Shown: positions 31,105-64,000, counted from the stretch's first letter. The stretch: 64,000 nt of DNA from Minisyncoccota bacterium (GCA_041657665.1 JBBABN010000001.1:2355-66354), one strand, 5' to 3'. Numbers and translations are program-made. The notes: generated by a model not told the origin, from the sequence alone.

Positions 31105-31154
31105 GTGTGAAAAGCGTGCATCACCAAGGGCTCTTCACGCTATACTATTTTTAT

Positions 31155-32903: not shown

Positions 32904-32904
32904 T

Positions 32905-34119: not shown

Positions 34120-34120
34120 T

Positions 34121-34507
34121 ATGAAATCTCCTAATGGATTCTCGCTCATCGAAATTATTATCTCGATATTTATTATTGGTTCTATGCTTATTCTGCTCCA
34201 GGCGATTATACATAGTGATATACTCGTAAAAAACTCAAAAAATCAAGGCGTTGCGCTTGCTATCGCCCGTAACGAACTTGAGAGCTTGCGGGCAGGTGGT
34301 TATACCATTCTTCCCCAAAGCGGTTCATTCTCTAACGACCTCTTGAACACACTCCCGGTGGGGGCAACTGCAACATTCACCATAAGCACCTATAACGAAA
34401 AGACAAAACAAGTTTCGGTAAACGTGATATGGATGGAACCAGGTTATACAGCGTCAAGTACTGTCTCACTCTCAACACTTATTACTGATTCTGGCGGGCT
34501 TCCATGA
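34121..34507 (+). CDS. Prepilin-type N-terminal cleavage/methylation domain protein (pilin)
   Basis: MKSPNG/FSLIEIIISIFIIG is a class III signal peptide (G|FxLIE) followed by a hydrophobic helix. Confidence 0.85.
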   Translation: MKSPNGFSLIEIIISIFIIGSMLILLQAIIHSDILVKNSKNQGVALAIARNELESLRAGGYTILPQSGSFSNDLLNTLPVGATATFTISTYNEKTKQVSVNVIWMEPGYTASSTVSLSTLITDSGGLP

Positions 34508-35076
34508 TATCCAAACAAAAAAAGAGTCATCGTACTGGATTTACACTTATTGAAACAGTAATTGTTGTTGCTCTGAGCGTAAGTATGCTGATCTCAATTA
34601 TTCTTTTAATCTCTAGCTTCACTACATCTGTGTCCTATCAGGAGACATTTGCACAATCATCCGGATCAGCAAGTGCAGTTATGCGCGAGATAGAGTCGTT
34701 TGCATTTCCTGCAAAAGCAGTACTTACCACTCACACATTCTCGAGCGCAACTTACACCTCTTCGTCAACAGTGCTTGTCCTTGAAATTCCTTCTATCGAT
34801 GATTCTGGGAATGTCATAGCAAACACCTATGACTACACAGCATTTTATGTTGTTGGTACGAATGCATACCGCCTTCTTGAAGCAAGCGCCTTAAGTAAAC
34901 GATTTTCAGGAACAAAACAGTTGAGCACCACCGTGAGTGCGCTGACATTCACTTACGACAATGTCGATCTCACAAAAGCCAGTATCGTTACTATCGACTT
35001 ACAAACACAAGCATACGTAAAACAAAACATCCTTTCTGACCATCGAAATGAGCAAATAAAATTGCGTAATTATTAA
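34504..35076 (+). CDS. Pilin-like protein (prepilin N-terminal domain)
   Basis: ...HRTG/FTLIETVIVVALSVSMLI is a prepilin peptidase site with E5. Confidence 0.8.
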   Translation: MISKQKKSHRTGFTLIETVIVVALSVSMLISIILLISSFTTSVSYQETFAQSSGSASAVMREIESFAFPAKAVLTTHTFSSATYTSSSTVLVLEIPSIDDSGNVIANTYDYTAFYVVGTNAYRLLEASALSKRFSGTKQLSTTVSALTFTYDNVDLTKASIVTIDLQTQAYVKQNILSDHRNEQIKLRNY

Positions 35077-35086
35077 TTCTTTCTGT

Positions 35087-36418
35087 ATGAACTATACATC
35101 TCACACTTCTGTGCTTCACCGAGGATATGTACTCGTTCTCGCTCTGGTATTCCTTGGTATTTTCTTCACGGTTTCAGGCGCATATCTAAGTTCAGTAACG
35201 AGCTCAGCAAGAATTGCTCGCTATGATATAGCGAGTGCACAAGCACTCGCACTCGCTGAAGCTGGTATCGACAAAGCCGTTTATCAACTGAACCAAAACC
35301 CTTCCTATACTGGGGAAACAAATACTACACTGGCACCAGGAATGTTTACCGTGACCGTTTCAGCAATCGACGGAACAACAAAACAAATCATCTCCACTGG
35401 TTTTATACCGAACAGCACCAACCCAGTAGCAACAAAAACTATTAAGGCAAATATTGGCATTAATAATTCCATCATTTCATTTCATTACGGAATTCAATCG
35501 GGAAATGGGGGATTCGAGATGGAAAATAATTCAACCGTAACTGGCAATGTATTCTCAGGAGGATCTGTTATTGGCGGTAGTGAAAATGATATTCTTGGCG
35601 ACGTTGTTTCTTCAGGAGATGATGGGCTAGTATATGGCATCCACGCAACAGGTTCGGTCTACTCTCACACCATCGGAAATTCGTCGAAAAGTACTACTAT
35701 TGACAAAGACGCGTACTATCATTCCTCTAAGACAAATACGACTGTGGGAGGAACTTCGCATCCAAATAGTGTCGACCAGTCAACAGCACCTCTTCCTATT
35801 TCAGATGATCAGATAAGCCGATGGGAAACCATAGCAGCCGCAGGAGGAACTGCAACGTGTCATGATGGTTCGTACAATATTTCTTCCGGGAACGTGACCC
35901 TCGGACCAATAAAGATTCCTTGTGATTTGAACATTACGAATGGCCCAACCGTAACAATAAACGGCCATATTTGGGTCACGGGCAATATCAATGTCCAAAA
36001 CACTGCAACGATAAAAATGGCAGCATCTCTTGGAGCTCAAAATATCGCTCTTATCGCTGATGATCCGACCGACCTGATGAATGGCAGTAGAATAAGTGTC
36101 GGTAATCAAACAGCATTCCAAAACTCCGGTACACCCGGCTCATTCATCTTCCTCATTTCCCAAAACAAAAGCGCTGAAAATGGTGGGGAAGTTGCAGCAT
36201 TTGACTTAAGTAACAGCGCATCTGCTCTCGTTGCCTATGCGGCACACGGACTTATCCCGCTCGCCAACAGCGTTTCATTAAAAGAAGTCACTGCATATAA
36301 AATAACATTGAAGAATTCAGCGAATGTTACGTATGACACTGGCCTTCCGAGTGTCGCATTCGAGTCAGGACCAGGAGGGAGTTGGAATTTCATTCCGGGA
36401 ACTTACACTATTCAGTGA
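35087..36418 (+). CDS. Large pilus-associated/minor-pilin-like secreted protein
   Basis: 443 aa with an N-terminal hydrophobic helix (VLVLALVFLGIFFTVSGAY). G/T/S/N-rich and probably beta-rich. Located last in the pilin gene block. Confidence 0.5.
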   Translation: MNYTSHTSVLHRGYVLVLALVFLGIFFTVSGAYLSSVTSSARIARYDIASAQALALAEAGIDKAVYQLNQNPSYTGETNTTLAPGMFTVTVSAIDGTTKQIISTGFIPNSTNPVATKTIKANIGINNSIISFHYGIQSGNGGFEMENNSTVTGNVFSGGSVIGGSENDILGDVVSSGDDGLVYGIHATGSVYSHTIGNSSKSTTIDKDAYYHSSKTNTTVGGTSHPNSVDQSTAPLPISDDQISRWETIAAAGGTATCHDGSYNISSGNVTLGPIKIPCDLNITNGPTVTINGHIWVTGNINVQNTATIKMAASLGAQNIALIADDPTDLMNGSRISVGNQTAFQNSGTPGSFIFLISQNKSAENGGEVAAFDLSNSASALVAYAAHGLIPLANSVSLKEVTAYKITLKNSANVTYDTGLPSVAFESGPGGSWNFIPGTYTIQ

Positions 36419-38686: not shown

Positions 38687-38731
38687 TGCATTTAATCTTA
38701 CAACTTATACCTTATACCTTACAACTGCTTT

Positions 38732-42038: not shown

Positions 42039-43550
42039 ATGCACTTTCTAATCGCCGTTGTTTCTGGATTCGCGAGTGGGGTGTTTTTAAAATCTGTTTT
42101 TAATTTTGGTTCGACTTCGCTCACCACAGGTAGTTGGCCAGTGATTCTTTTTATTTTTATTCTCGCGGCGCTTCTGAGCGCCGCGGCATTTTTAAAACCG
42201 CGAGTTGTGTATACAGCAGGCGCGGTGTTTTTTATTTTTGTTGTGTTCGGAATGTTGCGCACGACATTTATTGATTCGTCATTACCTGATGCATTTGTGC
42301 GCGATGTGAAGCATCGCGTTTCATACAACGGCATTGTAGTGAGTGACCCTGATGTGCGCGATGCGAACCAAAGAATCCAGGTTCAAGTTGTAAGTGGTAA
42401 GGAGCAAGTGAAGATGCTCGTGGTAGCGCCGAGGTATCCGAGCGTCGCGGTCGGCGACCACGTGCGCGTATCGGGGACACTCGCGCTACCTGAACCATTT
42501 GCCGACAACAACGGCCGCGTCTTTAAGTATGACAAATATCTTGAACGCGACGGCGTACGATTCTTACTTAACTTCGCGTATCTGCGCGTTACCGAAGAAG
42601 CGTCGTGGTATTCGATTCCTGCCACACTCGCGCGCGTGAAGCATTCATTTCTGAATGGACTGCAGGCAACGATGCCCGAGCCCTACGCGTCACTCGCGGG
42701 CGGCGTGGTGATAGGAGGGAAGTCCGGTCTCGGAAATGATTTGAAAGATGCATTCGTCCGCTCTGGTCTCGTGCAAATTATTGTGCTCTCTGGCTACAAT
42801 GTGATGATAGTCGCCGAATGGATTATGGCGGCACTCGCGCATACCAAGCTCCCGAAGCGATGGGGAGCAGTAGCAGGCGCTTGCGCCGTTCTTATCTTCG
42901 TCGGCATCGCAGGCGCCTCGGCGACCGCGTTGCGCGCGATGTTGATGGCTTTCATCGCGCTCTTCGCCCGCGCGACTGGCCGTTCTTACGCCGCCAGTCG
43001 CGCGCTTCTCGTTGTCGTCTTTCTTATGATCCTTTGGAATCCGCTCTATCTCGTCTTCGACCCCGGTTTCGGTCTCTCGGTCGCCGCGACTGCAGGGCTT
43101 ATCTGGCTCGCGCCGATTATCGAAACATTTCTCACATTATTTAAAAATCCTTTTTGGAAGAACACGGTCGCGACAACGCTCGCCGCACAAATCGCTGTTC
43201 TTCCACTCCTACTCTATGACACCGGCAATCTCTCCCTTGTCGCGATACCAGCGAATATCATCACGGCGCCTATGGTGCCGCTCGCGATGGGATTCTCGGC
43301 GCTCGCCGGATTCGCCGGAATACTCTTCAATTCTTTCGCTCCTTTCGTCGGCATCGTATTCGCATTTCCGGCGTATCTCGCGAATGCCTATCTCATATTT
43401 ATTGCGAATGAATCAGCGTCACTGCCGTTCGCAGCATTCACCCTTCCACTCTTTCCGTTTTGGCTCGTGCTCGTTGCGTATACGATGCTTATTTATATTG
43501 TTTCTAGAAATAAAACGCCGGCGCAAAATATTGCTACTGTCTCGTTATGA
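42039..43550 (+). CDS. comEC: ComEC/Rec2 competence channel protein (competence domain, polytopic membrane)
   Basis: ...AGGVVIGGKSGLGNDLKDAFVRSGLVQIIVLSGYNVMIVAEW... is the ComEC competence-domain signature. It has many TM helices. Confidence 0.8.
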   Translation: MHFLIAVVSGFASGVFLKSVFNFGSTSLTTGSWPVILFIFILAALLSAAAFLKPRVVYTAGAVFFIFVVFGMLRTTFIDSSLPDAFVRDVKHRVSYNGIVVSDPDVRDANQRIQVQVVSGKEQVKMLVVAPRYPSVAVGDHVRVSGTLALPEPFADNNGRVFKYDKYLERDGVRFLLNFAYLRVTEEASWYSIPATLARVKHSFLNGLQATMPEPYASLAGGVVIGGKSGLGNDLKDAFVRSGLVQIIVLSGYNVMIVAEWIMAALAHTKLPKRWGAVAGACAVLIFVGIAGASATALRAMLMAFIALFARATGRSYAASRALLVVVFLMILWNPLYLVFDPGFGLSVAATAGLIWLAPIIETFLTLFKNPFWKNTVATTLAAQIAVLPLLLYDTGNLSLVAIPANIITAPMVPLAMGFSALAGFAGILFNSFAPFVGIVFAFPAYLANAYLIFIANESASLPFAAFTLPLFPFWLVLVAYTMLIYIVSRNKTPAQNIATVSL

Positions 43551-44047
43551 AAAATTTCTATCTCATTTTATTTTTTATACTTATTGCAATTAATTTCACT
43601 ATTTATCGCACCATCTTCGCACCGCGCGTATTAGAAATATCGGTACTCGAAGCGGGGAAGGGTAATGCAACACTTGTGCGAACACCGAATGGCAAAACGC
43701 TCCTCATTGATACAGGTCCCGACGCGAGCATCTTACGCGCGCTCGGCACTGCACTCCCTCCTTGGCAGCGCCGTATTGATACGATCATACTCACGAGTGA
43801 TAAAGCGAGTTCATCTAAAGGACTTCTGGACGTAACGAGTCGCTACAAGATTCCAACTCCTCTACATTTCGGTACAGCTACTACTCCCTACGGAACACCT
43901 CTCACAATCGATTCAGTACAGATTACTGTCATATACGCCGATCTACTTTCTATTTCTTACGGCTCCACTGCACTCTTAATTTCCTCGAGCACACCCAAAG
44001 GCGTCTATATCTCGGACGGAATAGAGCTAGCAAAGATTACACAGTAG
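43547..44047 (+). CDS. ComEC C-terminal metallo-beta-lactamase-like domain fragment, encoded as a separate overlapping ORF
   Basis: ISVLEAGKGNATLVRTPNGKTLLIDTGPD is the opening of the ComEC MBL domain. Only 166 aa, so the HxHxDH region appears absent or degenerate. The ATGA overlap with the upstream ORF is in a different frame. Confidence 0.55.
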   Translation: MKNFYLILFFILIAINFTIYRTIFAPRVLEISVLEAGKGNATLVRTPNGKTLLIDTGPDASILRALGTALPPWQRRIDTIILTSDKASSSKGLLDVTSRYKIPTPLHFGTATTPYGTPLTIDSVQITVIYADLLSISYGSTALLISSSTPKGVYISDGIELAKITQ

Positions 44048-45040: not shown

Positions 45041-45238
45041 ATGGCAAGATATTGTAGTATTTGTCGTACTAGGAAGATACGGGTCAGAAATGAGACCCAT
45101 AAGAAAAATAAAACGGGTCAAAAAAGATGGACGGCGCCTCCAGACAAAAGTCATGACCTCTGCGACAAATGTTGGAGATCGGTTTGGGTATCCATAATAA
45201 ACTCAACTCGTTTTCAGCAAGAAACATCACACCCTTGA
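45041..45238 (+). CDS. Possible small zinc-ribbon protein (CSIC...CDKC)
   Basis: 65-aa ORF with two CxxC pairs, followed by an intrinsic terminator at 45229..45268. Confidence 0.3.
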   Translation: MARYCSICRTRKIRVRNETHKKNKTGQKRWTAPPDKSHDLCDKCWRSVWVSIINSTRFQQETSHP

Positions 45239-45268
45239 GAAGCCCCGCTTCTCAAGGGCTTCTTATTT
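45229..45268 (+). terminator. Rho-independent terminator (CCCTTGAGAAGC-CCCG-CTTCTCAAGGG followed by a T-rich tail)
   Basis: 11-bp stem with a following CTTCTTATTTT run. Confidence 0.7.
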
Positions 45269-45552
45269 TCATAATTTGCTATACTTCACTTATGGACTTC
45301 AACAAAATACCGAAACAATTCTGTGAGAACGTCGTCGCAGGTCATTCACAAGAAAATTTCGTGCTGATTATGAGTGTAGGGGAGACCGCGAACGCGTATG
45401 CGCTCACCCCACCACATATGAAGCGTCTCGTGCAGAGCTTGGCACACCAAGTCGGAGAATACGAAAAGAAATTCGGTTCTATTAACGCAAAATGGTCTCC
45501 CGGCATCGAGAGCCCCATCCAATCAAAAGATATAAAAGGGAGTGGAATATAA

Positions 45553-45610
45553 AATCCTATTGTGTGCATTCGACAATGCGATGATGCATGTGCACTCGAC
45601 AGTGCGATGA
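45553..45610. repeat. Tandem ~26-bp direct repeat (TGCATTCGACAATGCGATGATGCATG / TGCACTCGACAGTGCGATGATGCATC), each unit internally palindromic
   Basis: Two adjacent near-identical units immediately upstream of the ATG of ORF 45636, which is the first gene of the VirB4 cluster. Confidence 0.7.
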
Positions 45611-45635
45611 TGCATCGCCTGCTATACTAGAGTAG

Positions 45636-46076
45636 ATGGAATACCAAGTCCCACAATTTATCGAAGTTGAGAGTAAGATTGTTGGGCCGTTAACCTTGAA
45701 ACAGTTTATTTATGTCGCTGGAGCTGGAGGATTGTGTGTGGTTTTCTTTGTGTATCTTAATACGTTGTTTGCGCTCTTATTCTCAGGACTCGTGGTCGCG
45801 TTCGCGGCAGCGCTCGCATTCTATAAAATAAATAATAAGCCGTTCATTACTATGCTCGAAGCAGGATTTAACTATTACACTGGCTCGAAGTTCTTCCTCT
45901 GGAAACATGAGGAGCCAAGCAAAGGGGAGAGAAGTGCCACAGCGGCCGCTGCAGCAGCGGCCGAGGCGAATTTGAACATTCCACAAGGCACTCCGAAACT
46001 TACCCGAGGGAAGCTCTCTGAACTCGCTTGGTCACTCGATATCCAGAACAAAGAATCTGCGAAAAATCCAGAATAA
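45636..46076 (+). CDS. Small membrane protein (2 TM hairpin, Ala-rich tail), possibly VirB2/VirB3-like
   Basis: 146 aa with two adjacent TM helices, then AAAAAAAEANLNIPQG. Its position directly upstream of the VirB4 N-terminal ORF is analogous to PrgI/VirB3. Confidence 0.4.
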   Translation: MEYQVPQFIEVESKIVGPLTLKQFIYVAGAGGLCVVFFVYLNTLFALLFSGLVVAFAAALAFYKINNKPFITMLEAGFNYYTGSKFFLWKHEEPSKGERSATAAAAAAAEANLNIPQGTPKLTRGKLSELAWSLDIQNKESAKNPE

Positions 46077-46077
46077 T

Positions 46078-46716
46078 ATGACAAACACACGCACACCAGG
46101 AGCAACCCAGCAGTTCGTCCCCGTGAAGGAGATTCGGAATGGCACTATCATTTTGAAAGATGGTGGGTATCGCGGCATACTGATCTGTTCCTCGATTAAC
46201 TTCGGACTGAAGTCGGCTGACGAACAGCATGCTATTACGCTTGGTTTCCAAAATTTCCTCAACACCCTTGATTTCTCTATTCAGATAGTTATAAATTCGC
46301 GGAAAATGGATCTACGTCCCTATCTCACCCTTCTTGCAGAGAAAGCATCAGAACAAAAGACCGAACTTATGCGAGTCCAATTGCGAGAATATGTTGAGTT
46401 TGTGCGTTCTTTCGCTGATCAGGCAAACATTATGACCAAATCGTTCTATATTGTTGTCCCGTATGCACCACATGCTTCTGCAGCTGGTGCGATAAGTTTC
46501 TTGCGACACGAAAATACTACAGAGAAGAACGCTTCTGAGAAAACTTCTTTTAATGAAGATCGGGCACAGCTCGAACAACGGCTCTCACTCGTTGCTGGTG
46601 GCCTTGCTGGTACTGGAGTGCGCGCAGTGCCACTCGGCACCGAAGAAGTTATCGAACTTCTGTATCGTTCATTTAATCCGGGAGAGCTCGAGAACCCGAT
46701 TCGTCTCGATAATTAA
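46078..46716 (+). CDS. Probable VirB4/TraE N-terminal domain, encoded as a separate ORF
   Basis: FVPVKEIRNGTIILKDGGYRGILICSSINFGLKSADEQ... resembles the N-terminal CagE_TrbE_VirB-type region of Gram-positive VirB4 homologues (inference from motif pattern). It is in the same frame as the downstream VirB4 ATPase ORF and separated only by TAA plus 2 codons. Confidence 0.45.
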   Translation: MTNTRTPGATQQFVPVKEIRNGTIILKDGGYRGILICSSINFGLKSADEQHAITLGFQNFLNTLDFSIQIVINSRKMDLRPYLTLLAEKASEQKTELMRVQLREYVEFVRSFADQANIMTKSFYIVVPYAPHASAAGAISFLRHENTTEKNASEKTSFNEDRAQLEQRLSLVAGGLAGTGVRAVPLGTEEVIELLYRSFNPGELENPIRLDN

Positions 46717-46722
46717 ATTACT

Positions 46723-48549
46723 ATGGCACTTCTTGACTTCCTTAGCAGAAAAAACAAACAAGATTCTGAGAATTCGGCCGTCGTTCCTGTTCTCCCGAAA
46801 GATATTTATCGAGAAGGTTCGCTTAATCTGGCTGATACCATCGCCCCGACCGCGTTGAAGATTAGTTCGCGCGAAATCGAACTTGGAGAAAAGTTTGTTC
46901 GTTCTTTTTATACCATCTCCTATCCACGCTTCCTCTCTGACAGCTGGTTCTCTCCCGTCGTCAATCTCGACAAGATACTCGATGCTTCGATATTTATTCA
47001 TCCTGTCGATACTGAGCAGGCCCTCCGAGGTTTCCAAAAGAAAGTTGCTGAGGTTCAGAGTCAGATTAATGAACGAGAATCGAAAGGTCTTGTGCGCGAC
47101 CCTCTCCTCGATACGGCATATCAAGATCTCGAGAGTTTGCGTAATGATCTCCAACAAGCACAAGAAAAACTTTTTGATGTCGGCCTCTATCTCGCACTCT
47201 ATGGTGATTCAAAAGAAGATATCGATAAAACCGAAGGTGATATTCGCGGTATTCTCGACGCGAAGCTGGTCTATACGAAGCCAGCGCTCTTTCAGCAAGA
47301 GCAGGGATTCCGTTCTTGTCTTCCGCTTGGAACCGACGAACTTCTCGTCAATTCGAAATTAAATTCTTCACCCCTTTCTTCATTCTTCCCATTTGTTTCA
47401 TTCGATCTCACCAGCGACCGAGGAATCTTATATGGAATAAACAGACATAATTCATCTCTCATTCTCTTCGATCGTTTCTCGCTCGAGAACTACAACTCAG
47501 TCGTATTCGCGAAGTCTGGTTCAGGGAAAAGCTATGCGACGAAGCTCGAAATCCTACGTTCGCTGATGTTCGGTACTGACGTTATTGTTATCGATCCTGA
47601 GCGCGAATATGACCAACTCGCCGAAGCGACTGGCGGACGCGTCTTCCATATCTCACTTTCTTCTGAACATCACATCAATCCATTTGATCTGCCACCAGTA
47701 AAAGAAGGGGAGGACCCGAAAGATATTCTCCGCTCCAACATCATCGCACTCGTCGGACTCTTCCGTATTATGTTGAGTGGTCTTTCTCCTGAAGAGGACG
47801 CTATTGTCGACCGTGCTATTGGCGAGACATATGCACTGAAAGATATTACTGGTGACGCTAATTTCACCGGAGCAGAACCGCCTCTCCTCTCTGATTTTGA
47901 ACAGGTGCTTTCTGGTATGGAAGGGAGCGAATCCTTGGTTGAACGCCTTTCTAAATATACGCGTGGTTCCTGGGCCGGATTCCTCGACCAGCCAACCAAT
48001 ATCGACCTCACCCAACAATTCGAGGTCTTCTCAGTGCGTGATATGGAGGATGAGCTGAAGCCGGTAGCGATGTATATCATCACTCATTACATCTGGAATG
48101 CAGTGCGCCACGAGATGAAGAAACGTCTGCTTATTATCGACGAGGCGTGGTGGATGATGAAGAGCGAAGACACAGCTTCCTTCCTCTATTCGGTCGCGAA
48201 ACGTGGACGTAAGTATTATCTGGGCGTCTGCACGATTACTCAAGATGTGGAGGACTTCCTTAAGAGCCCATACGGACGACCTATTCTCGCGAACTCTTCA
48301 CTCCAATTACTTCTGAAACAATCGCCAACCACTATTGAGGTCCTGCAGCAAACATTTAATCTCACGGACGAAGAAAAATATCTTCTTCTTGAAGCTGGAG
48401 TGGGGGAGGGACTCTTCTTCGCCGGACTGAAACATGTCGCCATTAAGATAGTCGCGAGTTATACCGAAGACCAGATTATTACCTCCGATCCTTCGCAGCT
48501 TCTCGCAATAAAAGAAGAGAAGGCACGGTATGCCACCGAAAAGAAATAA
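46723..48549 (+). CDS. virB4: Type IV secretion system ATPase VirB4/TrbE/CagE family (ATPase core)
   Basis: Walker A VFAKSGSGKSYAT, ...VIVIDPEREY..., Walker B LLIIDEAWWMM, and a C-terminal conserved region. Confidence 0.8.
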   Translation: MALLDFLSRKNKQDSENSAVVPVLPKDIYREGSLNLADTIAPTALKISSREIELGEKFVRSFYTISYPRFLSDSWFSPVVNLDKILDASIFIHPVDTEQALRGFQKKVAEVQSQINERESKGLVRDPLLDTAYQDLESLRNDLQQAQEKLFDVGLYLALYGDSKEDIDKTEGDIRGILDAKLVYTKPALFQQEQGFRSCLPLGTDELLVNSKLNSSPLSSFFPFVSFDLTSDRGILYGINRHNSSLILFDRFSLENYNSVVFAKSGSGKSYATKLEILRSLMFGTDVIVIDPEREYDQLAEATGGRVFHISLSSEHHINPFDLPPVKEGEDPKDILRSNIIALVGLFRIMLSGLSPEEDAIVDRAIGETYALKDITGDANFTGAEPPLLSDFEQVLSGMEGSESLVERLSKYTRGSWAGFLDQPTNIDLTQQFEVFSVRDMEDELKPVAMYIITHYIWNAVRHEMKKRLLIIDEAWWMMKSEDTASFLYSVAKRGRKYYLGVCTITQDVEDFLKSPYGRPILANSSLQLLLKQSPTTIEVLQQTFNLTDEEKYLLLEAGVGEGLFFAGLKHVAIKIVASYTEDQIITSDPSQLLAIKEEKARYATEKK

Positions 48550-49222
48550 TCTGCCGCGGCCAGCCCGCCGCGGAGTGACAAATTCGGAGCCGCCTCCAGT
48601 GATGACCTGGCCAAAGGCGTCACCCGTTCTTATTATTGCCGGAATTTTTGATTTGCTCCGCATCATGTTTGAACAGTTTTGGTTCTTCGGGCCAGCAATC
48701 GCCGCCACATATTGCACTGCAAAAGTAAGTGGGATGGTAGGCACAACGATAGGATCAACTATATGTGGCGCTGGTGCTAGCGTGATTGGTACTGTCGGCT
48801 CTCCTGCGATTATAGCGTTTGGTGTTGTTATGGCGATGGCGGTCGGACTCTTCGGCTGGATGACGATCGGACTCGTACTTATTATGACTAATAGCCGAAT
48901 ATTTAAAGAGAATGAGGGTCAGATACTTTGGTTTGTCGGAAGTTTGCTTCTAAGTGAGACACCTATTATCGGCACCATCCCCGGACTCACTGGCGCAACA
49001 ATAAAGATGTACCATACCCAAATAAAAAAAGATAACGAGAATGTGGCGAAATATAATAAAGAGCAAGCTGCACAGCAGGTGCAAGAGCAGAACCAAAGAA
49101 ATGCAGAACTTATGCAGGAGCAGTACTCAGCTCAATTAGAACAAGCCGAACAAGAAGAGGAGAATGAAAATGAAGAAACAAATGAGGGAGAAATCCCCGA
49201 GAATGTGCGTAGTGCGGCATAA
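48530..49222 (+). CDS. Polytopic membrane protein with a Q/E-rich coiled-coil tail (T4SS-cluster component, possibly VirB6-like)
   Basis: 230 aa with ~4 TM helices. Overlaps the VirB4 stop. Assignment by position only. Confidence 0.4.
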   Translation: MPPKRNNLPRPARRGVTNSEPPPVMTWPKASPVLIIAGIFDLLRIMFEQFWFFGPAIAATYCTAKVSGMVGTTIGSTICGAGASVIGTVGSPAIIAFGVVMAMAVGLFGWMTIGLVLIMTNSRIFKENEGQILWFVGSLLLSETPIIGTIPGLTGATIKMYHTQIKKDNENVAKYNKEQAAQQVQEQNQRNAELMQEQYSAQLEQAEQEEENENEETNEGEIPENVRSAA

Positions 49223-49251
49223 TTGTCTCGTGTAGGCGCTATACTACTGGT

Positions 49252-50238
49252 ATGCGTTTTGGATTTTTAATCACCCTTTCATTAATCTTTCTTCTTCCTC
49301 TCGCAGTTTCTGCGCAGGCTATCAGTAATGAAGAGGCATTTACTATGTCGGTAAACCCTCAATATCCTGCACCGTATAGCCAAGCAGTACTTTCACTCCT
49401 TTCTTCTTCACTTGATCTTAATAATGCAATTATGACTGTTTCTGTTGCTGGAAAAGAAGTCTATAAAGGAAGTGTTCGCCCAACTGCTATTCCGGTAGGA
49501 GGGGCAGGAAGCGTTGTGAGTGCAAAAGTAACAGTAACTTCAGGAGGAGCTTCCTACAACCAAACAATCTCTATTCAACCTCAAGATGTCGTTCTTGTCG
49601 CGGAACCAATATCATCATCACCTCCTCTCTACCTAGGGAAATCGCTTGTCCCGCTTGAAGGAGATGTGCGCGTCGTCGCTATGGCGAACCTACGAGGAAC
49701 AAAAGGAGAGATAATTGACACAACAACTCTCTCATACTCTTGGACTGTGGATGACACACAAATCGCCAACGCTTCAGGTATTGGCAAACAGTCAATTACC
49801 GTTGCTTCACCATTCCAGTATCGAACACGGAAGGTCTCAGTCGCAGTAATGAGCCAAGATGGAAATCTTGTTGGAGGGGCTTCGCTCTCGCTCTCTGCTC
49901 TCGATCCGTCAGTACGCCTTTATAAAAATGACCCATTGCTCGGCATTCTCTATGATCACGCACTTTCTAGCAGTTATGCCATCAGCAATGCAGAAGAAAC
50001 ACTCTATGCAGCCCCATTTTCTCTCCCGACGACCAATGGCGCTCCGCTTATTCAATGGTTCTTAAGCGGCACGATAGCACAAACAGGTAATTCAATAACT
50101 CTACGACCAACAGGAAAAGGGCAGGGCAATGCTTCTCTGTCACTGACGGCTTCTTCTGGAGGATCAACAAAGGCGACAGAGAACCTCTCACTCTCTTTTG
50201 GAACCGCATCAAGTGGTTTTAGCTTATTTGGCCTATGA
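49252..50238 (+). CDS. Secreted protein (signal peptide MRFGFLITLSLIFLLPLAVSAQA), T4SS-cluster component
   Basis: Clear Sec signal peptide with an AxA site. 328 aa, S/T-rich, beta-type. Confidence 0.45.
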   Translation: MRFGFLITLSLIFLLPLAVSAQAISNEEAFTMSVNPQYPAPYSQAVLSLLSSSLDLNNAIMTVSVAGKEVYKGSVRPTAIPVGGAGSVVSAKVTVTSGGASYNQTISIQPQDVVLVAEPISSSPPLYLGKSLVPLEGDVRVVAMANLRGTKGEIIDTTTLSYSWTVDDTQIANASGIGKQSITVASPFQYRTRKVSVAVMSQDGNLVGGASLSLSALDPSVRLYKNDPLLGILYDHALSSSYAISNAEETLYAAPFSLPTTNGAPLIQWFLSGTIAQTGNSITLRPTGKGQGNASLSLTASSGGSTKATENLSLSFGTASSGFSLFGL

Positions 50239-51458
50239 AAAAAATATTCTTTATATCAGTTTTCTTTCTCTTCTTTGGTTTAGCGCCGCATGTCTTTGCC
50301 GCATGTTCTGACTATTCCAATTTCACTCCAATACAGAGGACAACGGGTCAAGGATGTGTAGAAATACTTGGTCCTGGATGGGTAATTGTTGATACCACCT
50401 GCTTGGGGACTGCTCTGCCAAGCGACAAAAATACTGTTTGTGGTTCAACAGCTCAAGCAGCACCAGCAAACCCAACACCGAATAGTCCTACCGGGCAAAC
50501 TCAACCATCAGCAACTCCGACAGGCAATAATAATGCTTCGCAAGGATTTACAGCACTCGCGCCTATTCCTGGACTTACTGACACAAACGGCGCAGTCGTG
50601 AATTCAAAATCGCTCTCAGATTTTTTTAATAATCTCTATAAATATCTTATCGGCATCGCCGCAATACTTGCAGTTATCCAGATTATTCGTGCAGGTTTTG
50701 ATATTGCGACAAACAAAGATAATGTCAGTGTCCTTATGAGTAGTAAAAGTAAAATTTCACAAGCAATTTATGGTCTCGTACTCGTCCTCTCGCCCGTGCT
50801 TGTTTTCTCCATCATCAATCCGAGCATTTTGAATCTTTCACTTAATCTTCCCCCACTTAATACAGCGCCAGAGACACAGGTTGGGAACGGAGGTAATAGC
50901 ACAGGAGTCACTGCAACTGATACTACAACTGGATGCACAACAAGTGGCACAAACGGTATTCTCCAAATTGCAACATGTCCTTCTAATGATGCTGTTGAGA
51001 AGGAAATTGACCGTTGCGGTAGTAATTCTGGAAAGATTTCTATAATTTCTAAAAATAGCCTAACGAATGGAACAATTGTTTCTGCAATGCTTATGTGCAA
51101 ATGGTCAAATAAGTATGTATTTATAGATACAAGAGATCAGGGAATCATCGGGTGGCTCACCTCACAATTTAATACAATCAATGATATTCAGCCGTTAGCT
51201 ATTACGACTGATAATCCTAACAATGGCAATTCTGCAATTCAATTTATGGAAACCTGTTCAAATTCTGGATTATCAACATGTATTAGTGCTACTGCTTTCA
51301 CTAATCCTGTAGATTGTACACCGACACCCAAAACACCTTTGCCTGGCAAAGCTAGAAAATGTGGTAATTTAACCTTGACTTGCCGAGATTATGGGACGAT
51401 ACATACTTTTGTAGGTAGTTTGTGTTCTAAAAGTCCTAGTTGGACGCCATTTCAATAA
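50235..51458 (+). CDS. Secreted/membrane protein with signal peptide and central TM hairpin (pilin/VirB2-like segment), Cys-rich C-terminal domain
   Basis: Signal peptide MKKIFFISVFFLFFGLAPHVFA. The two adjacent hydrophobic helices LIGIAAILAVIQII... and ...GLVLVLSPVLVFSII recall the VirB2/TrbC hairpin. Confidence 0.4.
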   Translation: MKKIFFISVFFLFFGLAPHVFAACSDYSNFTPIQRTTGQGCVEILGPGWVIVDTTCLGTALPSDKNTVCGSTAQAAPANPTPNSPTGQTQPSATPTGNNNASQGFTALAPIPGLTDTNGAVVNSKSLSDFFNNLYKYLIGIAAILAVIQIIRAGFDIATNKDNVSVLMSSKSKISQAIYGLVLVLSPVLVFSIINPSILNLSLNLPPLNTAPETQVGNGGNSTGVTATDTTTGCTTSGTNGILQIATCPSNDAVEKEIDRCGSNSGKISIISKNSLTNGTIVSAMLMCKWSNKYVFIDTRDQGIIGWLTSQFNTINDIQPLAITTDNPNNGNSAIQFMETCSNSGLSTCISATAFTNPVDCTPTPKTPLPGKARKCGNLTLTCRDYGTIHTFVGSLCSKSPSWTPFQ

Positions 51459-52654
51459 TTATGCGCCGACTACTTATTACCTTCATAACGCTCCTCGCCC
51501 TCATTGGAATCGGGGTAGCTGTCTATTTCTATTTCTTCGCCAATCAGGCCAGTGTTGTCGTTGCGCCAACGAATACATCATTACCCACAGCCGGACAAAC
51601 TGTTTTCCCTTTAGAACCAGCAAATCTAGCGACCACAACCGATAAGACGACTCTCGTCGCTGCACGACTCATACAAATAAGCACAGGACCTGTTGTACCT
51701 GGGGAAGCAGTAGTTGCTATACCAGCTGCAAATGCTAGTTCATCATTAGAAATTGCGGTGAATTATATCGAGCGTCAGAGTGGAAATGTTTTTTCCTATC
51801 AGACACGTACTGGAACGCTTATACGAACGAACAATAAGACCGTCCCAGGCATTCAGTCAGCCGAATGGCTTCCCGATGCTTCATTCGCCTTTGTTCAGTA
51901 TCTATCTGGTACTGATTTTTCTACTATTAACACTTACGCGCTCCCAGCAAGCTCGAACAACACAGGAGGATTCTTTTTACCTCAAAACCTTACTGATGTA
52001 GCTGTTTCTTCAACAAGCGTGCTCATGCTTGCTTCTGGTGTAAATGGTTCGGCAGCTTCAGTTGCGCACACAGACGGCACACATGTATCTGAAGCATTCA
52101 CGACACCTCTTTCTTCACTTCGTGTTTCTTTTGCGGGAAAAAATTATCTCGCATTTACGAAGCCGTCAGCGACACTCGCGGGTAATGCATTCATAGTTAC
52201 CAAAGGACACTTCTCTCGTATTGCAGGGCCATTATATGGCCTTATGGCCCTTTCTAGCCCGTCAGGGAAGTGGGTAGTAGTGAGTTACACGCAAGACACA
52301 GCAATCCAGATGGAGCTTGTGAACACAGAGACAAACGAAGCTATTCAACTTCCGGTTGCTACCATTGCTGATAAATGTGTGTGGGCAGCTGATGATTCAG
52401 CTTTCTATTGCGGTATTCCTGTCAGCCCAGCGAGTGGTTATGCATACCCAGATGATTGGTACCAAGGGGCGGTACATTTCTCTGATCGTATATGGAAAAT
52501 AGATGTGGTGGACCGCCAAGCACAGCTGGTGCTCGATTTCCCGAAAGAAACAAAAGGTTCACTTGATGCAATCGCACTCGCTATTGACCCTCTTGCTACC
52601 ACACTGGCATTTATTAATAAAAACGATGGTTCACTCTGGAGCTACTCACTCTAA
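51440..52654 (+). CDS. Membrane-anchored extracytoplasmic protein (N-terminal TM, 404 aa)
   Basis: N-terminal TM LLITFITLLALIGIGVAVYFYFF. The remainder is beta-rich, so a possible beta-propeller. Unknown function. Confidence 0.4.
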   Translation: MDAISIIMRRLLITFITLLALIGIGVAVYFYFFANQASVVVAPTNTSLPTAGQTVFPLEPANLATTTDKTTLVAARLIQISTGPVVPGEAVVAIPAANASSSLEIAVNYIERQSGNVFSYQTRTGTLIRTNNKTVPGIQSAEWLPDASFAFVQYLSGTDFSTINTYALPASSNNTGGFFLPQNLTDVAVSSTSVLMLASGVNGSAASVAHTDGTHVSEAFTTPLSSLRVSFAGKNYLAFTKPSATLAGNAFIVTKGHFSRIAGPLYGLMALSSPSGKWVVVSYTQDTAIQMELVNTETNEAIQLPVATIADKCVWAADDSAFYCGIPVSPASGYAYPDDWYQGAVHFSDRIWKIDVVDRQAQLVLDFPKETKGSLDAIALAIDPLATTLAFINKNDGSLWSYSL

Positions 52655-62021: not shown

Positions 62022-63692
62022 CTATCTCGGGAGATCAACGGTGTCGGCAACTTCGGAGAGGGAGGTGATACCAGAGAGTGCTTTTAGAATGCCGTCTTGC
62101 ACCATCGTGAGATAACCCTGTTTCGCGGTTAGTTTTGCAATTTCATTTTCGGGCGGATTATCGCGGAGGAATGTCGCGAGTTCATCATCCATAAAGATGG
62201 CTTCGTAGAGGCCGATACGACCTCGGTAACCAGTTTCTTTATCATTTTCAGGTGCCGGTTCCCAAACAGTCTCTATTTTTTCAGGAATGAGCGATTTATC
62301 AGAAAGCGGTTCGAACACTTTTGCGATCATCGCTTTTTCTTCGTCAGTGAGTGGTCGTTCTTTTTTCTTATCCGGATCGAGTTTGCGCAGGAGTCGTTGT
62401 GCCATCGAGACAGTTACGGCTGAACCAAACGACTTCGGGTCCGCGCCGAGGTCTGCGAGGCGCGGGAATGTTCCTGCGGCATTGTTGGTGTGGAGAGTAG
62501 AGAAGACGAAGTGGCCCGTGAGCGCTGCTTGTATAGCGATATTTGCGGTTTCACCATCACGTATTTCGCCGACCATAATGATGTCGGGGTCTTGGCGGAC
62601 GATTGATTTCAATCCTTCAGCGAATGTGTATTTCGTGCCCTCAACTTGCGTCTGCACAATGCCATCGAGATGGTACTCTACTGGATCTTCAATCGTAATA
62701 ATCTTTATTTCTGGTGTATGAATCTCGCGCAAGAATGAATAGAGAGTGGTTGTTTTACCACTACCAGTTGGACCAGTGGTGAGTAACATACCGTTCGGAC
62801 GCCGAATTTCGGTCTCGAGACGCGCGAGAAGTTTCGAGTGGATACCAAGCTCTTTATACGAGACCATCGTCGCTTCAGGATTAAGAATACGCATCACGAT
62901 GGATTCGCCATAGTTCCCAGGGATGAAGGAGACACGCATTTCTACCTCACTATCTTCGTGCGAGACGGTAAAACGCCCGTCTTGTGCCCGGTTTGTCACA
63001 TTCAGCTTTACTCCCGAGAGTAGTTTGATGCGGGAATTAACTTGATGATACGTTGTTGGATCGAAGAAATACGAATCAACGAGAATGCCATCAATACGAA
63101 GACGCATACGCGTTTTTTCTTCTCCTGGTTCGAAGTGAATATCGGAAGAACGAAGAGTGAATGCTCCAGCAAGGACGGTCTCGAGAATACGAGAAACACG
63201 ATCGAGCGATTTAATTGTGGTGGCAGCATTTAACGCTTCAGTAAGTGTGTTTTGTGTGCCACTCTCTTTCGAGAATGTGGCGAGTACTTCTGGTTCAATA
63301 ATAAATCCACCAGTCTTTGCTTCGGTAGAAAAGGAAAGGTCAGCGTAATGAGAAAATGCTTTTTCCAAACTTTTTTCTGAAACGAGAAATTCTTGTAGTG
63401 AGAATCCGCGTTCTGTAAGCTCGGCATGGAGTTTTATAAATGCAGGATTGTTTGGATTATGAATTGCAAGAGAAAGTTTCTTTGCAGTGCGTGCGAAAGC
63501 GGCTACTTCAGCAGCCCGCGCTTCTTCTTCTGGAATAGTGCGTAGCGCATCGTTATCTATCTCATTTAATGAGAGGTCAACATACGTCATTTGGTACTTG
63601 TCAGAGAGGATGTGTGCGACATCCTCTTCTTCTCGTTCACGTACCTCTGCTAACTTCTTTGTTTCTTGGTCAGTATCAAATGGTAGGTCCAT
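62022..63692 (-). CDS. Second GspE/PilB-family secretion/pilus ATPase
   Basis: Walker [15 protein letters not shown], Asp box, Walker [10 protein letters not shown], His box [12 protein letters not shown]. Start chosen at [10 protein letters not shown] (63692); the longer track ORF would overlap the divergent tsaE. Confidence 0.8.
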
Positions 63693-63719
63693 AAGCGTAT
63701 AATACACCGAATGGAGGCA

Positions 63720-64000
63720 ATGGTTAAAACACTTGAAGAACTTGACGCGGAGGTGGAGCGATTTATTGGCGTACTTTCCTCGAAAGAGGGTGGTGCGACG
63801 CTTGTAACCCTCTCGGGAGACTTGGGAGCGGGCAAGACTGCCTTTACGAAGGCAGTTGCGAGAATTCTCGGGGTGGAAGAAACGGTAACCAGCCCCACCT
63901 TCGTCCTTGAGAAGATTTATCAACTTGGGGGTCCGGCCCCCAAGTTCAAACGGTTGGTACATATTGACGCATATCGGCTTGAGTCAGGGGATGATCTCGC
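63720..64000 (+). CDS. tsaE: tRNA threonylcarbamoyladenosine biosynthesis protein TsaE (YjeE), 3'-partial at the window edge
   Basis: ...[17 protein letters not shown]...[12 protein letters not shown]...HIDAYRL has the P-loop and the SPTF and H-D-YR motifs of TsaE. No stop before 64000. Confidence 0.8.

What the first reader, a model, noticed from the sequence alone, without database searches (positions are those of the whole stretch)
45553..52654. VirB4-centred type IV secretion-like cluster with a possible split VirB4 and an upstream tandem-repeat operator
Seven co-directional genes make up this cluster. They are a 2-TM small protein, a 212-aa ORF resembling the N-terminal domain of Gram-positive VirB4/TraE proteins, the VirB4 ATPase core (608 aa), a polytopic membrane protein, and three signal-peptide or TM proteins. 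One of those has a VirB2-like hydrophobic hairpin. The 212-aa ORF and the ATPase core are in the same reading frame, separated only by TAA-ATT-ACT. Together they total ~820 aa, a typical full-length VirB4. Either this is a genuinely split VirB4 or a second in-frame TAA interruption (cf. uvrD). Two ~26-bp tandem direct repeats with internal dyad symmetry (45553..45610) sit just upstream of the first gene. Their position and form fit a repressor operator. T4SS-like loci in ultra-small episymbiotic bacteria are thought to mediate host interaction and DNA uptake, and are poorly characterised.
Basis: partly seen in the sequence, partly recalled or inferred. Interest (0 to 1): 0.55.

Follow-up and report, generated by a model that had tools for sequence, protein, structure and literature searches.

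The report
Known Patescibacteria type IV secretion locus
This is the chromosomal, origin-proximal type IV secretion gene cluster that was already described for ultra-small Patescibacteria in 2025. Its "split VirB4" is an ordinary, anciently separate gene (the TrsD family), not an interrupted or recoded one.

Summary
The seven co-directional genes exist as described.

**What the genes are**
- A PrgI/VirB3-like 2-TM protein.
- A 212-aa TrsD-like protein, equivalent to the VirB4 N-terminal domain.
- The VirB4 ATPase core.
- A small polytopic membrane protein.
- A secreted beta-rich protein.
- A VirB2-like pilin with a variable Cys-rich tail.
- A membrane-anchored beta-propeller.

**The split is genuine**
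- I compared 82 related loci from Paceibacteria/Kaiserbacteria-type genomes.
- The 212-aa gene and virB4 are always separate. Their frame offset is 0/1/2 in 27/33/23 junctions (window included).
- The stop codon is TAA, TGA or TAG.
- Six loci carry a 0.55-0.98 kb cassette between the two genes.
- The shared reading frame here is therefore a coincidence. The recoding or pseudogene reading is refuted.

**Already published**
- Quinonero-Coronel et al. 2025 (PMC12102498) describe this architecture: TrsD next to VirB4, PrgI, VirB2-like pilins, no relaxase, and a position beside dnaA.

**The tandem repeat**
- It is real: 2 x 26 nt at 45563-45614, unique in the window.
- It abuts a strictly conserved extended -10 box (TGCTATACT) that ends 7 nt before the prgI ATG, which implies a leaderless mRNA.
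- The repeat is lineage-specific, and its role as an operator is untested.

**Small additions from this work**
- Two conserved leaderless promoters.
- The propeller fold.

Interest is low.

The parts
45563..45614 (+). Two tandem 26-nt direct repeats (TGTGCAYTCGACARTGCGATGATGCA), lying 22-73 nt upstream of the prgI ATG. A candidate cis-element, lineage-specific.
   Evidence: Related one- or two-copy elements sit at the same place in about 10 relatives.
45604..45618 (.). Perfect palindrome GCGATG-ATG-CATCGC, one base upstream of the TG of the extended -10 box.
   Evidence: Relatives have co-varying versions at this position: CGACG-AGG-CGTCG in L068, read by eye in L064/L065; TGCCG-ATG-CGGCA in L031, read by eye from the sequence printed; TGCCGC-G-GCGGCA in L035.
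45620..45628 (+). Extended -10 promoter box TGCTATACT, ending 7 nt before the prgI ATG. Inferred leaderless promoter of the first transcription unit (prgI, trsD, virB4, p230).
   Evidence: 67 of 75 loci have TGnTAnnnT and the other 8 have TATACT or TATAAT. The distance to the ATG is 7 nt in 50 loci and 8 nt in 15. SD-like motifs occur in 6 of 77.
45636..46076 (+). PrgI-family (VirB3-like) small membrane protein with 2 TM segments.
   Evidence: Pfam PF12666, E 3.6e-9, 37.5 bits against a cut-off of 27. Hydropathy.
46078..46716 (+). TrsD-like protein, equivalent to the VirB4 N-terminal domain encoded as a separate gene. 212 aa, soluble.
46723..48549 (+). VirB4 ATPase core, 608 aa.
   Evidence: NCBIfam conju_CD1110, E 1.6e-111, above its cut-off. 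Pfam P-loop_TraG. PDB 4ag5 VirB4 C-terminal domain, E 4.5e-42. Median 90% identity across 80 loci.
48530..49222 (+). Small polytopic membrane protein with a charged, coiled C-terminal tail. Sits in the VirB6 position, but VirB6 homology is not shown. Overlaps the end of virB4 by 20 nt.
49240..49245 (+). TATACT -10 box, 6 nt before the p328 ATG. Inferred leaderless promoter of the second transcription unit (p328, pilin, propeller).
   Evidence: Present in 57 of 58 related loci.
49252..50238 (+). Conserved secreted beta-rich protein of 328 aa with a signal peptide. Function unknown.
   Evidence: Weak Ig-like BiPBP_C hints only.
50235..51458 (+). VirB2-like T4SS pilin. It has a signal peptide, a low-complexity insert, a conserved hairpin at about residues 105-205, and a variable Cys-rich C-terminal extension.
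51461..52654 (+). N-terminally membrane-anchored beta-propeller protein, 397 aa.

Best explanation
**What it is.** This is the core chromosomal type IV secretion system of a Paceibacteria/Kaiserbacteria-type Patescibacterium. It belongs to the Patescibacteria clade of the monoderm MPF_FATA class. It lies 1.3 kb from dnaA, next to the replication origin.

**Gene content.**
- A VirB3-like PrgI anchor.
- A VirB4 motor made of two polypeptides: a 212-aa TrsD-like N-domain and a 608-aa ATPase core.
- A small polytopic membrane protein.
- A secreted beta-rich protein.
- A VirB2-like pilin.
- A membrane-anchored beta-propeller.

**The split.** The separation of trsD from virB4 is an old, conserved gene organisation. 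The shared reading frame in this genome is a coincidence.

**Expression (inferred from sequence).**
- Two leaderless transcripts start at conserved TATACT boxes, 7 nt before the prgI ATG and 6 nt before the p328 ATG.
- Downstream genes are translated by coupling across 1-6 nt gaps or short overlaps.

**Function (inferred from published work on relatives).**
- The machine builds a VirB2-type pilus or channel used in the epibiotic interaction with a host cell.
- It does not carry out conjugation.

**The repeat.** The 2 x 26-nt repeat is a lineage-specific element of the first promoter. It is possibly a regulator binding site.
For: **Family assignments:**

**The split is collinear with a full-length VirB4**
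- NCBIfam conju_CD1110 maps the 212-aa ORF to positions 1-165 and the core to 184-733.
- The fused 797-aa relative P0241 aligns to the 212-aa ORF at 8-213 (39% identity, E 3e-46) and to the core at 226-795 (56% identity).

**Fold**
- The AF2 model has pLDDT 88.

**TrsD link**
- hhalign against pSK41 TrsD gives E 1e-4 end to end.
- pSK41 has the order trsC-trsD-trsE(VirB4).
- A Bacillus plasmid has PrgI, then a protein with an N212-like region, then a DUF87 ATPase.

**The split is ancestral**
- 5049 homologues were found, and the best 120 are all 211-225 aa.
- Of the best 150 representatives at 50% identity, one is fused.
- Across the 82 related loci plus the window, the frame offset is 0/1/2 in 27/33/23. 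The stop codon is TAA/TGA/TAG in 46/27/10. Six loci have cassettes between the genes.

**Synteny:** all eight genes, including inverted yidC, are collinear in 51 of 51 loci long enough to show them.

**Origin:** the cumulative GC-skew minimum lies at about 53-54 kb, beside rpmH-dnaA.

**No conjugation partners:** no T4CP or relaxase was found among the window ORFs scanned.

**Promoters:**

**Literature**
- PMC12102498 describes the same architecture.
- PMC10633639 shows that the T4SS is essential for epibiotic growth of a Saccharibacterium.
Against: **Function is not shown here**
- It is extrapolated from Saccharimonadia genetics to a different class.
- Nothing here shows what the machine transports.

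**Three of the seven proteins match no T4SS family**
- These are p230, p328 and p404. They are assigned to the system only by conserved synteny and gene overlap.
- No VirB6, VirB8 or VirB1 homologue was identified in the cluster.

**TrsD membership is weak by sequence**
- NCBIfam TrsD scores 16.7 bits against a cut-off of 200.
- hhalign probability is 56%.
- The local Pfam scan found no family on the 212-aa ORF.

**Leaderless transcription is inferred from motif position only.** There are no transcript data.

**The p404 model is of moderate confidence** (pLDDT 67.5).
Confidence: 0.88

Rival explanations
1. The VirB4 gene is interrupted. The TAA at 46714-46716 would be a nonsense mutation, a sequencing error, or a recoded or read-through codon, and the real product would be one ~820-aa protein.
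For: - The two ORFs share a frame, with only TAA-ATT-ACT between them.
- Together they equal a full-length VirB4.
- uvrD in the same window does carry an in-frame TAA inside helicase motif VI.
Against: - Among the 82 related loci plus the window, the two genes are in the same frame at only 27 junctions, and offset by 1 or 2 in 33 and 23.
- The stop codon at the same position is TAA, TGA or TAG in 46, 27 and 10. So TAA is a stop in this lineage.
- The downstream gene always begins with its own ATG, usually 1-6 nt after the stop.
- Six loci have 0.55-0.98 kb inserted between the genes.
- Stand-alone 211-225-aa homologues number in the thousands.
Confidence: 0.02
2. The cluster is the mating-pair-formation module of an integrated conjugative element or plasmid, and it transfers DNA by conjugation.
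For: - The VirB4 core passes the cut-off of NCBIfam's conjugal-transfer ATPase family CD1110.
- The closest non-CPR architectures are on conjugative plasmids of Bacillota.
- A tyrosine recombinase gene lies at 15703-16635, though it is 30 kb away and looks like XerC/D.
Against: - No relaxase or coupling protein was found among the window ORFs scanned.
- The neighbours are housekeeping genes: yidC, rnpA, rpmH, dnaA, dnaN.
- The same position and gene order hold in 51 of 51 sufficiently long loci from different species.
- VirB4 has a median 90% identity across those loci, as expected for a vertically inherited core gene.
- The literature reports that relaxases are absent from most such loci (PMC12102498).
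Confidence: 0.04
3. The 2 x 26-nt tandem repeat is an operator. A dimeric regulator would bind the palindrome between positions -32 and -18 and control the first T4SS promoter, as a repressor or as a spacer-binding activator.
For: - The repeat is unique in the window and far beyond chance.
- It ends 5 nt before the TG of a conserved extended -10 box.
- A perfect 15-bp palindrome lies at 45604-45618.
- About 10 relatives carry a related element at the same position. Three to four of them have two copies with a period of about 26 nt.
- The half-sites change together in relatives, for example CGATG/CATCG to CGACG/CGTCG.
- Palindromes with arms of 6 bp or more occur in 9.7% of loci against 3% in shuffles.
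- The region has no significant RNA fold (z -0.87), which argues against a structured-RNA reading.
Against: - Only the -10 box is conserved across the family. The information content upstream of it is about zero.
- Most relatives lack both the repeat and the palindrome.
- Copy 1 has only a degenerate palindrome.
- No DNA-binding regulator was found in the window.
- The motif does not recur at the second promoter or anywhere else in the window.
- A neutral local duplication of promoter-upstream DNA explains the repeat equally well.
Confidence: 0.3
4. The machine imports nucleic acid, in the manner of the archaeal Ced system or the ComB system, and works with the nearby ComEC and type IV pilus genes.
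For: - comEC (42039-43550) and a type IV pilus cluster (31080-36418) lie within 15 kb.
- There are weak NCBIfam matches of the ATPase to CedB and CedD (E 5e-8 and 2e-5).
- There is no relaxase.
- A 2026 preprint (10.64898/2026.06.21.733656) reports putative T4SS pili at the parasite-host interface of a cultured relative that feeds on host RNA.
Against: - The Ced matches cover only the P-loop region and fall far below the family cut-offs.
- In S. epibionticum, comEC is needed for transformation but is dispensable for growth, whereas the T4SS is essential. So the two are not functionally coupled there (PMC12857230).
- Linkage to comEC was not examined across relatives.
Confidence: 0.15

Closest known systems
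Patescibacteria-clade T4SS (Quinonero-Coronel et al. 2025, Microb Genom, PMC12102498; Wang et al. 2023, Cell, PMC10633639)
   Same: - VirB4 with an adjacent stand-alone TrsD homologue.
- A PrgI/VirB3-like gene and a VirB2-like pilin gene nearby.
- No relaxase or T4CP next to it.
- A chromosomal position beside dnaA, dnaN, rnpA and rpmH, as reported for Paceibacteria.
   Different: **No difference in kind.**

**Details seen here that the paper does not discuss**
- Its text contains neither 'promoter' nor 'operon'. Seen here are two conserved leaderless-type promoters.
- A single pilin with a variable Cys-rich tail, rather than a pilin array.
- A conserved TM-anchored beta-propeller.
- A 328-aa secreted protein.
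- A lineage-specific tandem repeat at the first promoter.
pGO1/pSK41 trs conjugation system of Staphylococcus (MPF_FATA subclass with TrsC-TrsD-TrsE)
   Same: - The gene order: a small membrane protein, then TrsD, then a VirB4-like ATPase, then a membrane protein.
- TrsD aligns end to end with the 212-aa family profile (hhalign E 1e-4).
   Different: - pSK41 is a conjugative plasmid with a relaxase, a VirD4-like TrsK, a CHAP hydrolase TrsG and a TrbL-like TrsL.
- None of these is in the window.
- Identity to TrsD is only about 15%.
Full-length VirB4 (TrwK of R388, PDB 7o42; CD1110-family VirB4 of Bacillota)
   Same: - The 212-aa protein plus the 608-aa core are collinear with one full-length VirB4.
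- The core matches the VirB4 C-terminal domain structure 4ag5.
   Different: - It is made of two polypeptides rather than one.
- The break falls at about position 165-184 of a 752-position profile. So only the first part of the VirB4 N-terminal half is detached.

Membership tests
Type IV secretion system (VirB4-defined) | A VirB4-family ATPase with a P-loop domain | tested here: met
   - NCBIfam NF045971 scores 373.9 bits against a cut-off of 325.
- Pfam PF19044 scores 84.7 bits against 25.8.
- PDB 4ag5, E 4.5e-42.
Type IV secretion system (VirB4-defined) | A VirB3-like small membrane partner encoded next to virB4 | tested here: met
   - Pfam PrgI PF12666 scores 37.5 bits against a cut-off of 27.
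- Two TM segments.
Type IV secretion system (VirB4-defined) | A VirB6-like polytopic channel protein | tested here: inconclusive
   - p230 is polytopic and sits in the expected position.
- No member of its family matches any VirB6, TrbL or PrgH model.
- It does not match pSK41 TrsF.
Type IV secretion system (VirB4-defined) | A VirB8-like bitopic NTF2-fold protein | tested here: not met
   - The one bitopic protein, p404, is predicted to be a beta-propeller, not an NTF2 fold.
- p328 has no VirB8 match.
- The literature also finds VirB8 rarely in this phylum.
Patescibacteria-clade T4SS (MPF_FATA-derived, non-conjugative) | A stand-alone TrsD homologue adjacent to virB4 | tested here: met
   -.
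- The precomputed family on the protein and its homologues is PF26593 TraC-like.
Patescibacteria-clade T4SS (MPF_FATA-derived, non-conjugative) | A VirB2-like pilin gene in the cluster | tested here: met
   - The window protein is below the Pfam cut-offs: TrbC 25.0 bits against 27.9, and T4SS_pilin 19.3 bits against 26.6.
- All 20 family members match PF18895, with a best E of 1.5e-9.
Patescibacteria-clade T4SS (MPF_FATA-derived, non-conjugative) | No relaxase or coupling protein with the cluster; chromosomal, near dnaA | tested here: met
   - none among the ORFs scanned. Not every small ORF was scanned.
- dnaA is at 53981.
- GC-skew minimum at about 53-54 kb.
Patescibacteria-clade T4SS (MPF_FATA-derived, non-conjugative) | VirB4 falls inside the monophyletic Patescibacteria VirB4 clade | not tested
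   - No phylogeny was built.
- The closest homologues of the neighbouring proteins are all from Paceibacteria, Kaiserbacteria or Minisyncoccia MAGs.
TrsD/TraD family (NCBIfam NF041427) | Score above the family cut-off | tested here: not met
   - 16.7 bits against a cut-off of 200, E 0.005.
- The relationship to pSK41 TrsD is remote: hhalign E 1e-4, probability 56%, 15% identity.
- It works like TrsD and shares its position, but it is not a member of NCBI's narrow family.
Conjugative T4SS | A relaxase, a T4CP and an oriT associated with the mating-pair-formation genes | tested here: not met
   - Neither protein was found in the window.
- oriT was not searched for.

The most novel reading that the evidence does not exclude
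**The claim.** The lineage-specific 26-nt tandem element, with its co-varying palindrome, is a real operator. It sits in the spacer region of a leaderless, -35-less promoter. An unidentified regulator would bind it and switch the T4SS motor operon of some Paceibacteria, perhaps in response to host contact. In a related class this machine is essential for epibiotic growth.

**A weaker companion reading.** The variable Cys-rich C-terminal domain fused to the single VirB2-like pilin is displayed on the pilus surface and sets host specificity.
Probability: 0.2. Interest if true: 0.4.

Novelty: already known. Interest (0 to 1): 0.2.

Why it matters
**Why the system matters.** Patescibacterial T4SSs are of real interest. 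They are the first T4SSs shown to be essential for the growth of their owner, and they are unusual among monoderm systems in carrying VirB2-type pilins.

**Why this locus adds little.** Its composition, the separate TrsD gene and its position by the origin were all published in 2025.

**Practical value of this check**
- It removes a false lead. There is no stop-codon recoding or broken VirB4 here.
- It gives annotators a rule: in this clade a ~211-aa gene in front of virB4 is normal, whatever its frame.

**Modest additions**
- Two strictly conserved promoter boxes placed for leaderless mRNAs.
- A conserved propeller protein and a conserved secreted protein that always travel with the system.
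- Both could guide experiments in the few cultured Paceibacteria.

Tried and rejected
**1. Pfam on the 212-aa ORF**
- The expected PF03135 hit did not appear. There were no hits at all in the local Pfam copy, even at E up to 10 and with two homologues added.
- The precomputed family PF26593 does not match in the local Pfam copy.

**2. PDB sequence searches**
- Profile searches with the 212-aa, p328 and p404 families found nothing meaningful.

**3. VirB6 assignment of p230**
- No Pfam support in any of 14 family members.
- No similarity to pSK41 TrsF.

**4. VirB8 assignment of p404**
- Rejected. The model is a beta-propeller with only generic matches.

**5. Structured-RNA or terminator reading of the repeat**
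- The fold is no better than shuffles (z -0.87).
- The scan found no terminator between the DUF3467 gene and prgI.

**6. A family-wide conserved operator**
- Rejected. Only the -10 box carries information across 75 loci.

**7. A regulator gene in the window**
- None found among the ORFs scanned.

**8. Literature on leaderless mRNAs in Patescibacteria**
- Nothing relevant in the searchable library.

**9. Look-ups that failed**
- Retrieval of the source contig via P0271 returned no record.
It was re-run with A7.

Full report
**1. Observation**

The seven co-directional ORFs are present as described:
- 45636-46076: 146 aa.
- 46078-46716: 212 aa.
- 46723-48549: 608 aa.
- 48530-49222: 230 aa.
- 49252-50238: 328 aa.
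- 50235-51458: 407 aa.
- 51440-52654: homologues and an identical database protein support a start at the ATG at 51461, giving 397 aa.

The 212-aa and 608-aa ORFs share a reading frame and are separated by TAA-ATT-ACT.

The tandem repeat is real, but it lies at 45563-45588 and 45589-45614. It has a 26-nt period and 92% identity. It is unique in the window, with no match in 100 shuffles.

Its dyad symmetry is limited to one perfect 6-3-6 palindrome at 45604-45618, GCGATG-ATG-CATCGC. This straddles the end of copy 2. The repeat finder reported no inverted repeat.

**2. Identity of the genes**

- The first gene is a PrgI-family (VirB3-like) protein, above the Pfam cut-off, with two hydrophobic segments.
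- The 608-aa protein is a VirB4 ATPase:
  - NCBIfam CD1110 family, E 1.6e-111, above its cut-off.
  - Pfam P-loop_TraG.
  - The VirB4 C-terminal domain structure 4ag5, E 4.5e-42.
- The 407-aa protein carries a VirB2-type hairpin.
  - The window copy is just below the Pfam cut-offs.
  - All 20 family members tested match PF18895 T4SS_pilin, and 13 match TrbC/VirB2.
  - The alignment shows a signal peptide, a strongly conserved hairpin and a C-terminal Cys-rich region. That region varies in sequence and length, and the proteins range from 164 to 423 aa.
- The 230-aa protein is a small polytopic membrane protein with a charged tail. It matches no VirB6-type model.
- The 328-aa protein has a signal peptide and matches no family. 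A few relatives carry a weak Ig-like BiPBP_C match.
- The 397-aa protein has one N-terminal TM helix and an all-beta ectodomain.
  - The AF2 model (pLDDT 67.5, pTM 0.66) is a beta-propeller.

**3. The 212-aa ORF is the detached N-terminal part of VirB4**

Four lines of evidence agree:
- The NCBIfam full-length VirB4 profile CD1110 has 752 positions. It aligns the 212-aa protein to 1-165 and the core to 184-733. The mycoplasma VirB4 profile shows the same collinearity.
- A fused 797-aa relative (P0241, from the exhaustive representative search) aligns to the 212-aa protein at residues 8-213 (39% identity, E 3e-46). It aligns to the core at 226-795 (56% identity).
- The precomputed Pfam family on this protein and its homologues is PF26593 TraC-like.

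**4. The split is genuine and old**

- The word-indexed search found 5049 homologues. The best 120 are all 211-225 aa and 82-90% identical. They come from Kaiserbacteria, Paceibacterota and Minisyncoccia MAGs.
- Among the best 150 representatives at 50% identity, 149 are stand-alone proteins and one is fused.
  - The eight I read included seven long stand-alone forms. Those seven have low-complexity C-terminal tails and are not truncated fusions.
- I fetched 80 loci from different GTDB species, plus three loci by exact protein look-up: one identical to the window and two holding the same 88%-identical homologue.
- At 83 trsD-virB4 junctions (82 related loci plus the window), the pattern is as follows:
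  - The frame offset is 0, 1 or 2 in 27, 33 and 23 cases.
  - The stop codon is TAA, TGA or TAG in 46, 27 and 10.
  - virB4 always has its own ATG, usually 1-6 nt after the stop.
- In the closest distinct relative (88% identity, L002) the gap is one base, so the frames differ.
- Six loci have a 0.55-0.98 kb cassette between the two genes.

An in-frame interruption, a read-through or a recoded TAA is therefore excluded. The shared frame here is one of three equally common spacings.

There the TAA sits inside helicase motif VI, HA*KGLEF.

**5. Conservation and context**

- The order prgI, trsD, virB4, p230, p328, pilin, propeller, then inverted yidC is collinear in all 51 loci long enough to show the eight genes.
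- Median identity to the window proteins:

| Protein | Median identity |
|---|---|
| VirB4 | 90% |
| TrsD-like | 81% |
| PrgI | 67% |
| p404 | 62% |
| p328 | 61% |
| pilin (over its conserved part) | 54% |
| p230 | 45% |

- Downstream of the cluster lie yidC, rnpA, rpmH, dnaA and dnaN.
- The cumulative GC-skew minimum is at about 53-54 kb, so the cluster ends about 1.3 kb from the origin.
- The other window ORFs scanned are housekeeping, type IV pilus or competence genes. No coupling protein, relaxase or obvious DNA-binding regulator was found.

**6. Expression signals (inferred)**

- The nine bases TGCTATACT at 45620-45628 end 7 nt before the prgI ATG.
- Across 75 non-duplicate loci, 67 have TGnTAnnnT there. 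The other 8 have TATACT or TATAAT. The distance to the ATG is 7 nt in 50 loci and 8 nt in 15.
- Shine-Dalgarno-like motifs are rare, at 6 of 77.
- A second TATACT box lies 6 nt before the p328 ATG in 57 of 58 loci.
- In the window as a whole, TAnnnT boxes peak sharply at 6 nt before start codons, in 13 of 51 genes. SD-like motifs occur in 4 of 51.

The simplest reading is two leaderless transcripts:
- prgI-trsD-virB4-p230.
- p328-pilin-propeller.

The internal genes would be translated by coupling across 1-6 nt gaps or short overlaps. This rests on motif position alone.

**7. The tandem repeat**

- It lies 22-73 nt upstream of the prgI ATG, directly upstream of the extended -10 box.
- About ten relatives carry a related element (consensus ACTCGACAGTRCGATGAGGCRTCG) at the same place.
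- Three to four of them have two copies with a period of about 26 nt.
- Their palindromes change on both arms together.
- Palindromes with arms of 6 bp or more occur in 9.7% of loci, against 3% in shuffles.
- Family-wide, nothing upstream of the -10 box is conserved.
- The motif does not recur elsewhere in the window.
- The region does not fold better than shuffles as RNA.
- No regulator is at hand in the window.

A regulator binding site is possible (about 0.3). A neutral duplication of promoter-upstream DNA is as good an explanation.

**8. Comparison with what is known**

Quinonero-Coronel et al. 2025 (PMC12102498) surveyed 3,035 Patescibacteria genomes. They describe:
- A monophyletic Patescibacteria VirB4 clade nested in MPF_FATA.
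- TrsD, a remote homologue of the VirB4 N-terminus, as the most abundant accessory component. It was found next to virB4 in 1,664 cases.
- PrgI/VirB3 homologues and VirB2-like pilins near virB4.
- Scarce VirB6 and VirB8 homologues.
- Almost no relaxases.
- In Paceibacteria, proximity to dnaA, dnaN, rnpA and rpmH.

Wang et al. 2023 (PMC10633639) showed by Tn-seq that the T4SS genes, including the pilins, are essential for epibiotic growth of a Saccharibacterium. The system lacks recognisable coupling and relaxase proteins.

The split itself has precedents in Bacillota:
- pSK41 has trsC-trsD-trsE. TrsD aligns end to end with the 212-aa family profile (hhalign E 1e-4).
- Large Bacillus and Clostridium plasmids match the 212-aa protein. 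The one inspected has PrgI, then a protein with an N212-like region, then a DUF87 ATPase.

The locus is therefore a typical member of a described system.

**9. Mechanism**

Shown or strongly supported:
- A two-chain VirB4 motor with a VirB3-like partner.
- A VirB2-type pilin.
- Three conserved envelope proteins of unknown role.

Inferred from established knowledge of T4SSs and from the papers above:
- The N-domain protein docks the ATPase core to PrgI and the membrane complex.
- The motor drives assembly of a pilus or channel.
- The machine serves the interaction with a host cell rather than conjugation.

What it transports is unknown. Import of nucleic acid cannot be excluded. However, the T4SS is not functionally tied to ComEC in the one system tested.

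**10. Verdict**

- Novelty: already known.
- Interest: low.

Noticed in passing
window 29493-29548 (-): Rfam gathering-level match to a type III hammerhead ribozyme: 52.3 bits against a threshold of 48.5. It lies in a stretch (about 28650-30330) with few long ORFs.
   Followed up: no
window 8150-8152 within uvrD (7739-9775, -): uvrD carries an in-frame TAA inside helicase motif VI (…LMTVHA*KGLEFDTVFV…). The reading frame continues for about 120 more residues. Unlike the trsD/virB4 junction, this interrupts a conserved motif, so it looks like a point mutation, a pseudogene or a sequencing error.
   Followed up: partly
whole window; e.g. 3886, 16661, 40932, 41560, 45292, 45636, 49252: Start codons are rarely preceded by Shine-Dalgarno-like motifs (4 of 51). 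TAnnnT boxes peak sharply 6 nt before start codons (13 of 51). This suggests that leaderless mRNAs are the usual form for first genes of operons in this genome. No paper on this for Patescibacteria was found in the searchable library.
   Followed up: partly
L022:8634-9356, L025:3475-4363, L037:610-1165, L056:8607-9415, L057:8619-9501, L080:1896-2877: Six related species have a 0.55-0.98 kb cassette inserted exactly between trsD and virB4. It is flanked by inverted repeats of tandem TAGGC-type motifs (…TTAGGCTTTAGGCACTAGGCTCTAGC … GCTAGCGCCTAGAGCCTAGCGCCT). In five of the six it carries an intact ~117-aa ORF that, by my reading of its motifs, resembles four-helix-bundle / 23S-rRNA-IVS proteins; L037 keeps only its C-terminal part. 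Most of the six also carry a variable second ORF. It looks like a small mobile element with a preferred target site.
   Followed up: partly
L039, L040, L045-L048, L068, L069, L072, L073, L077, L083 (trsD-virB4 spacer): A subgroup of relatives has a 30-50-nt AT-rich spacer between trsD and virB4, with the motif TTTAAATATTTAAATATTT ending about 7 nt before the virB4 ATG. It is possibly an internal promoter acquired in that lineage.
   Followed up: no
window 45277-45552: A small DUF3467 gene (true start at the ATG at 45292, 86 aa) has its own identical TGCTATACT box 6 nt before its ATG. A strong bidirectional terminator-like hairpin lies at 45232-45258. Homologues (median 86% identity) lie directly upstream of prgI in about 19 related loci, and within a few kb in about 14 more. 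Whether it belongs to the T4SS is open.
   Followed up: partly
window 31080-36418, 42039-44047, 62022-63962: A type IV pilus cluster (PilB, PilC, a PilX-like protein), comEC with a separate metallo-beta-lactamase ORF, and a second PilB-like ATPase all lie in the same 64 kb as the T4SS.
   Followed up: no
window 52-54 kb: The cumulative GC-skew minimum coincides with rpmH-dnaA, so the origin is here. The seven T4SS genes are on the + strand to the left of it. They are therefore on the lagging strand, transcribed head-on to replication. yidC, rnpA and rpmH are co-directional with the fork.
   Followed up: no
window 15300-15329, 22326-22355, 23301-23330, 38704-38721: Four separate short tandem arrays of a similar 7-nt unit (CTTACAC, CTTAAAC, CTTATAC; 2.6-4.3 copies). 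One lies just upstream of recJ. Meaning unknown.
   Followed up: no
window 6891-7013: A 54-nt tandem repeat (2.3 copies, 73% matches) inside the 1010-aa ORF that ends in a peptidoglycan-binding domain.
   Followed up: no
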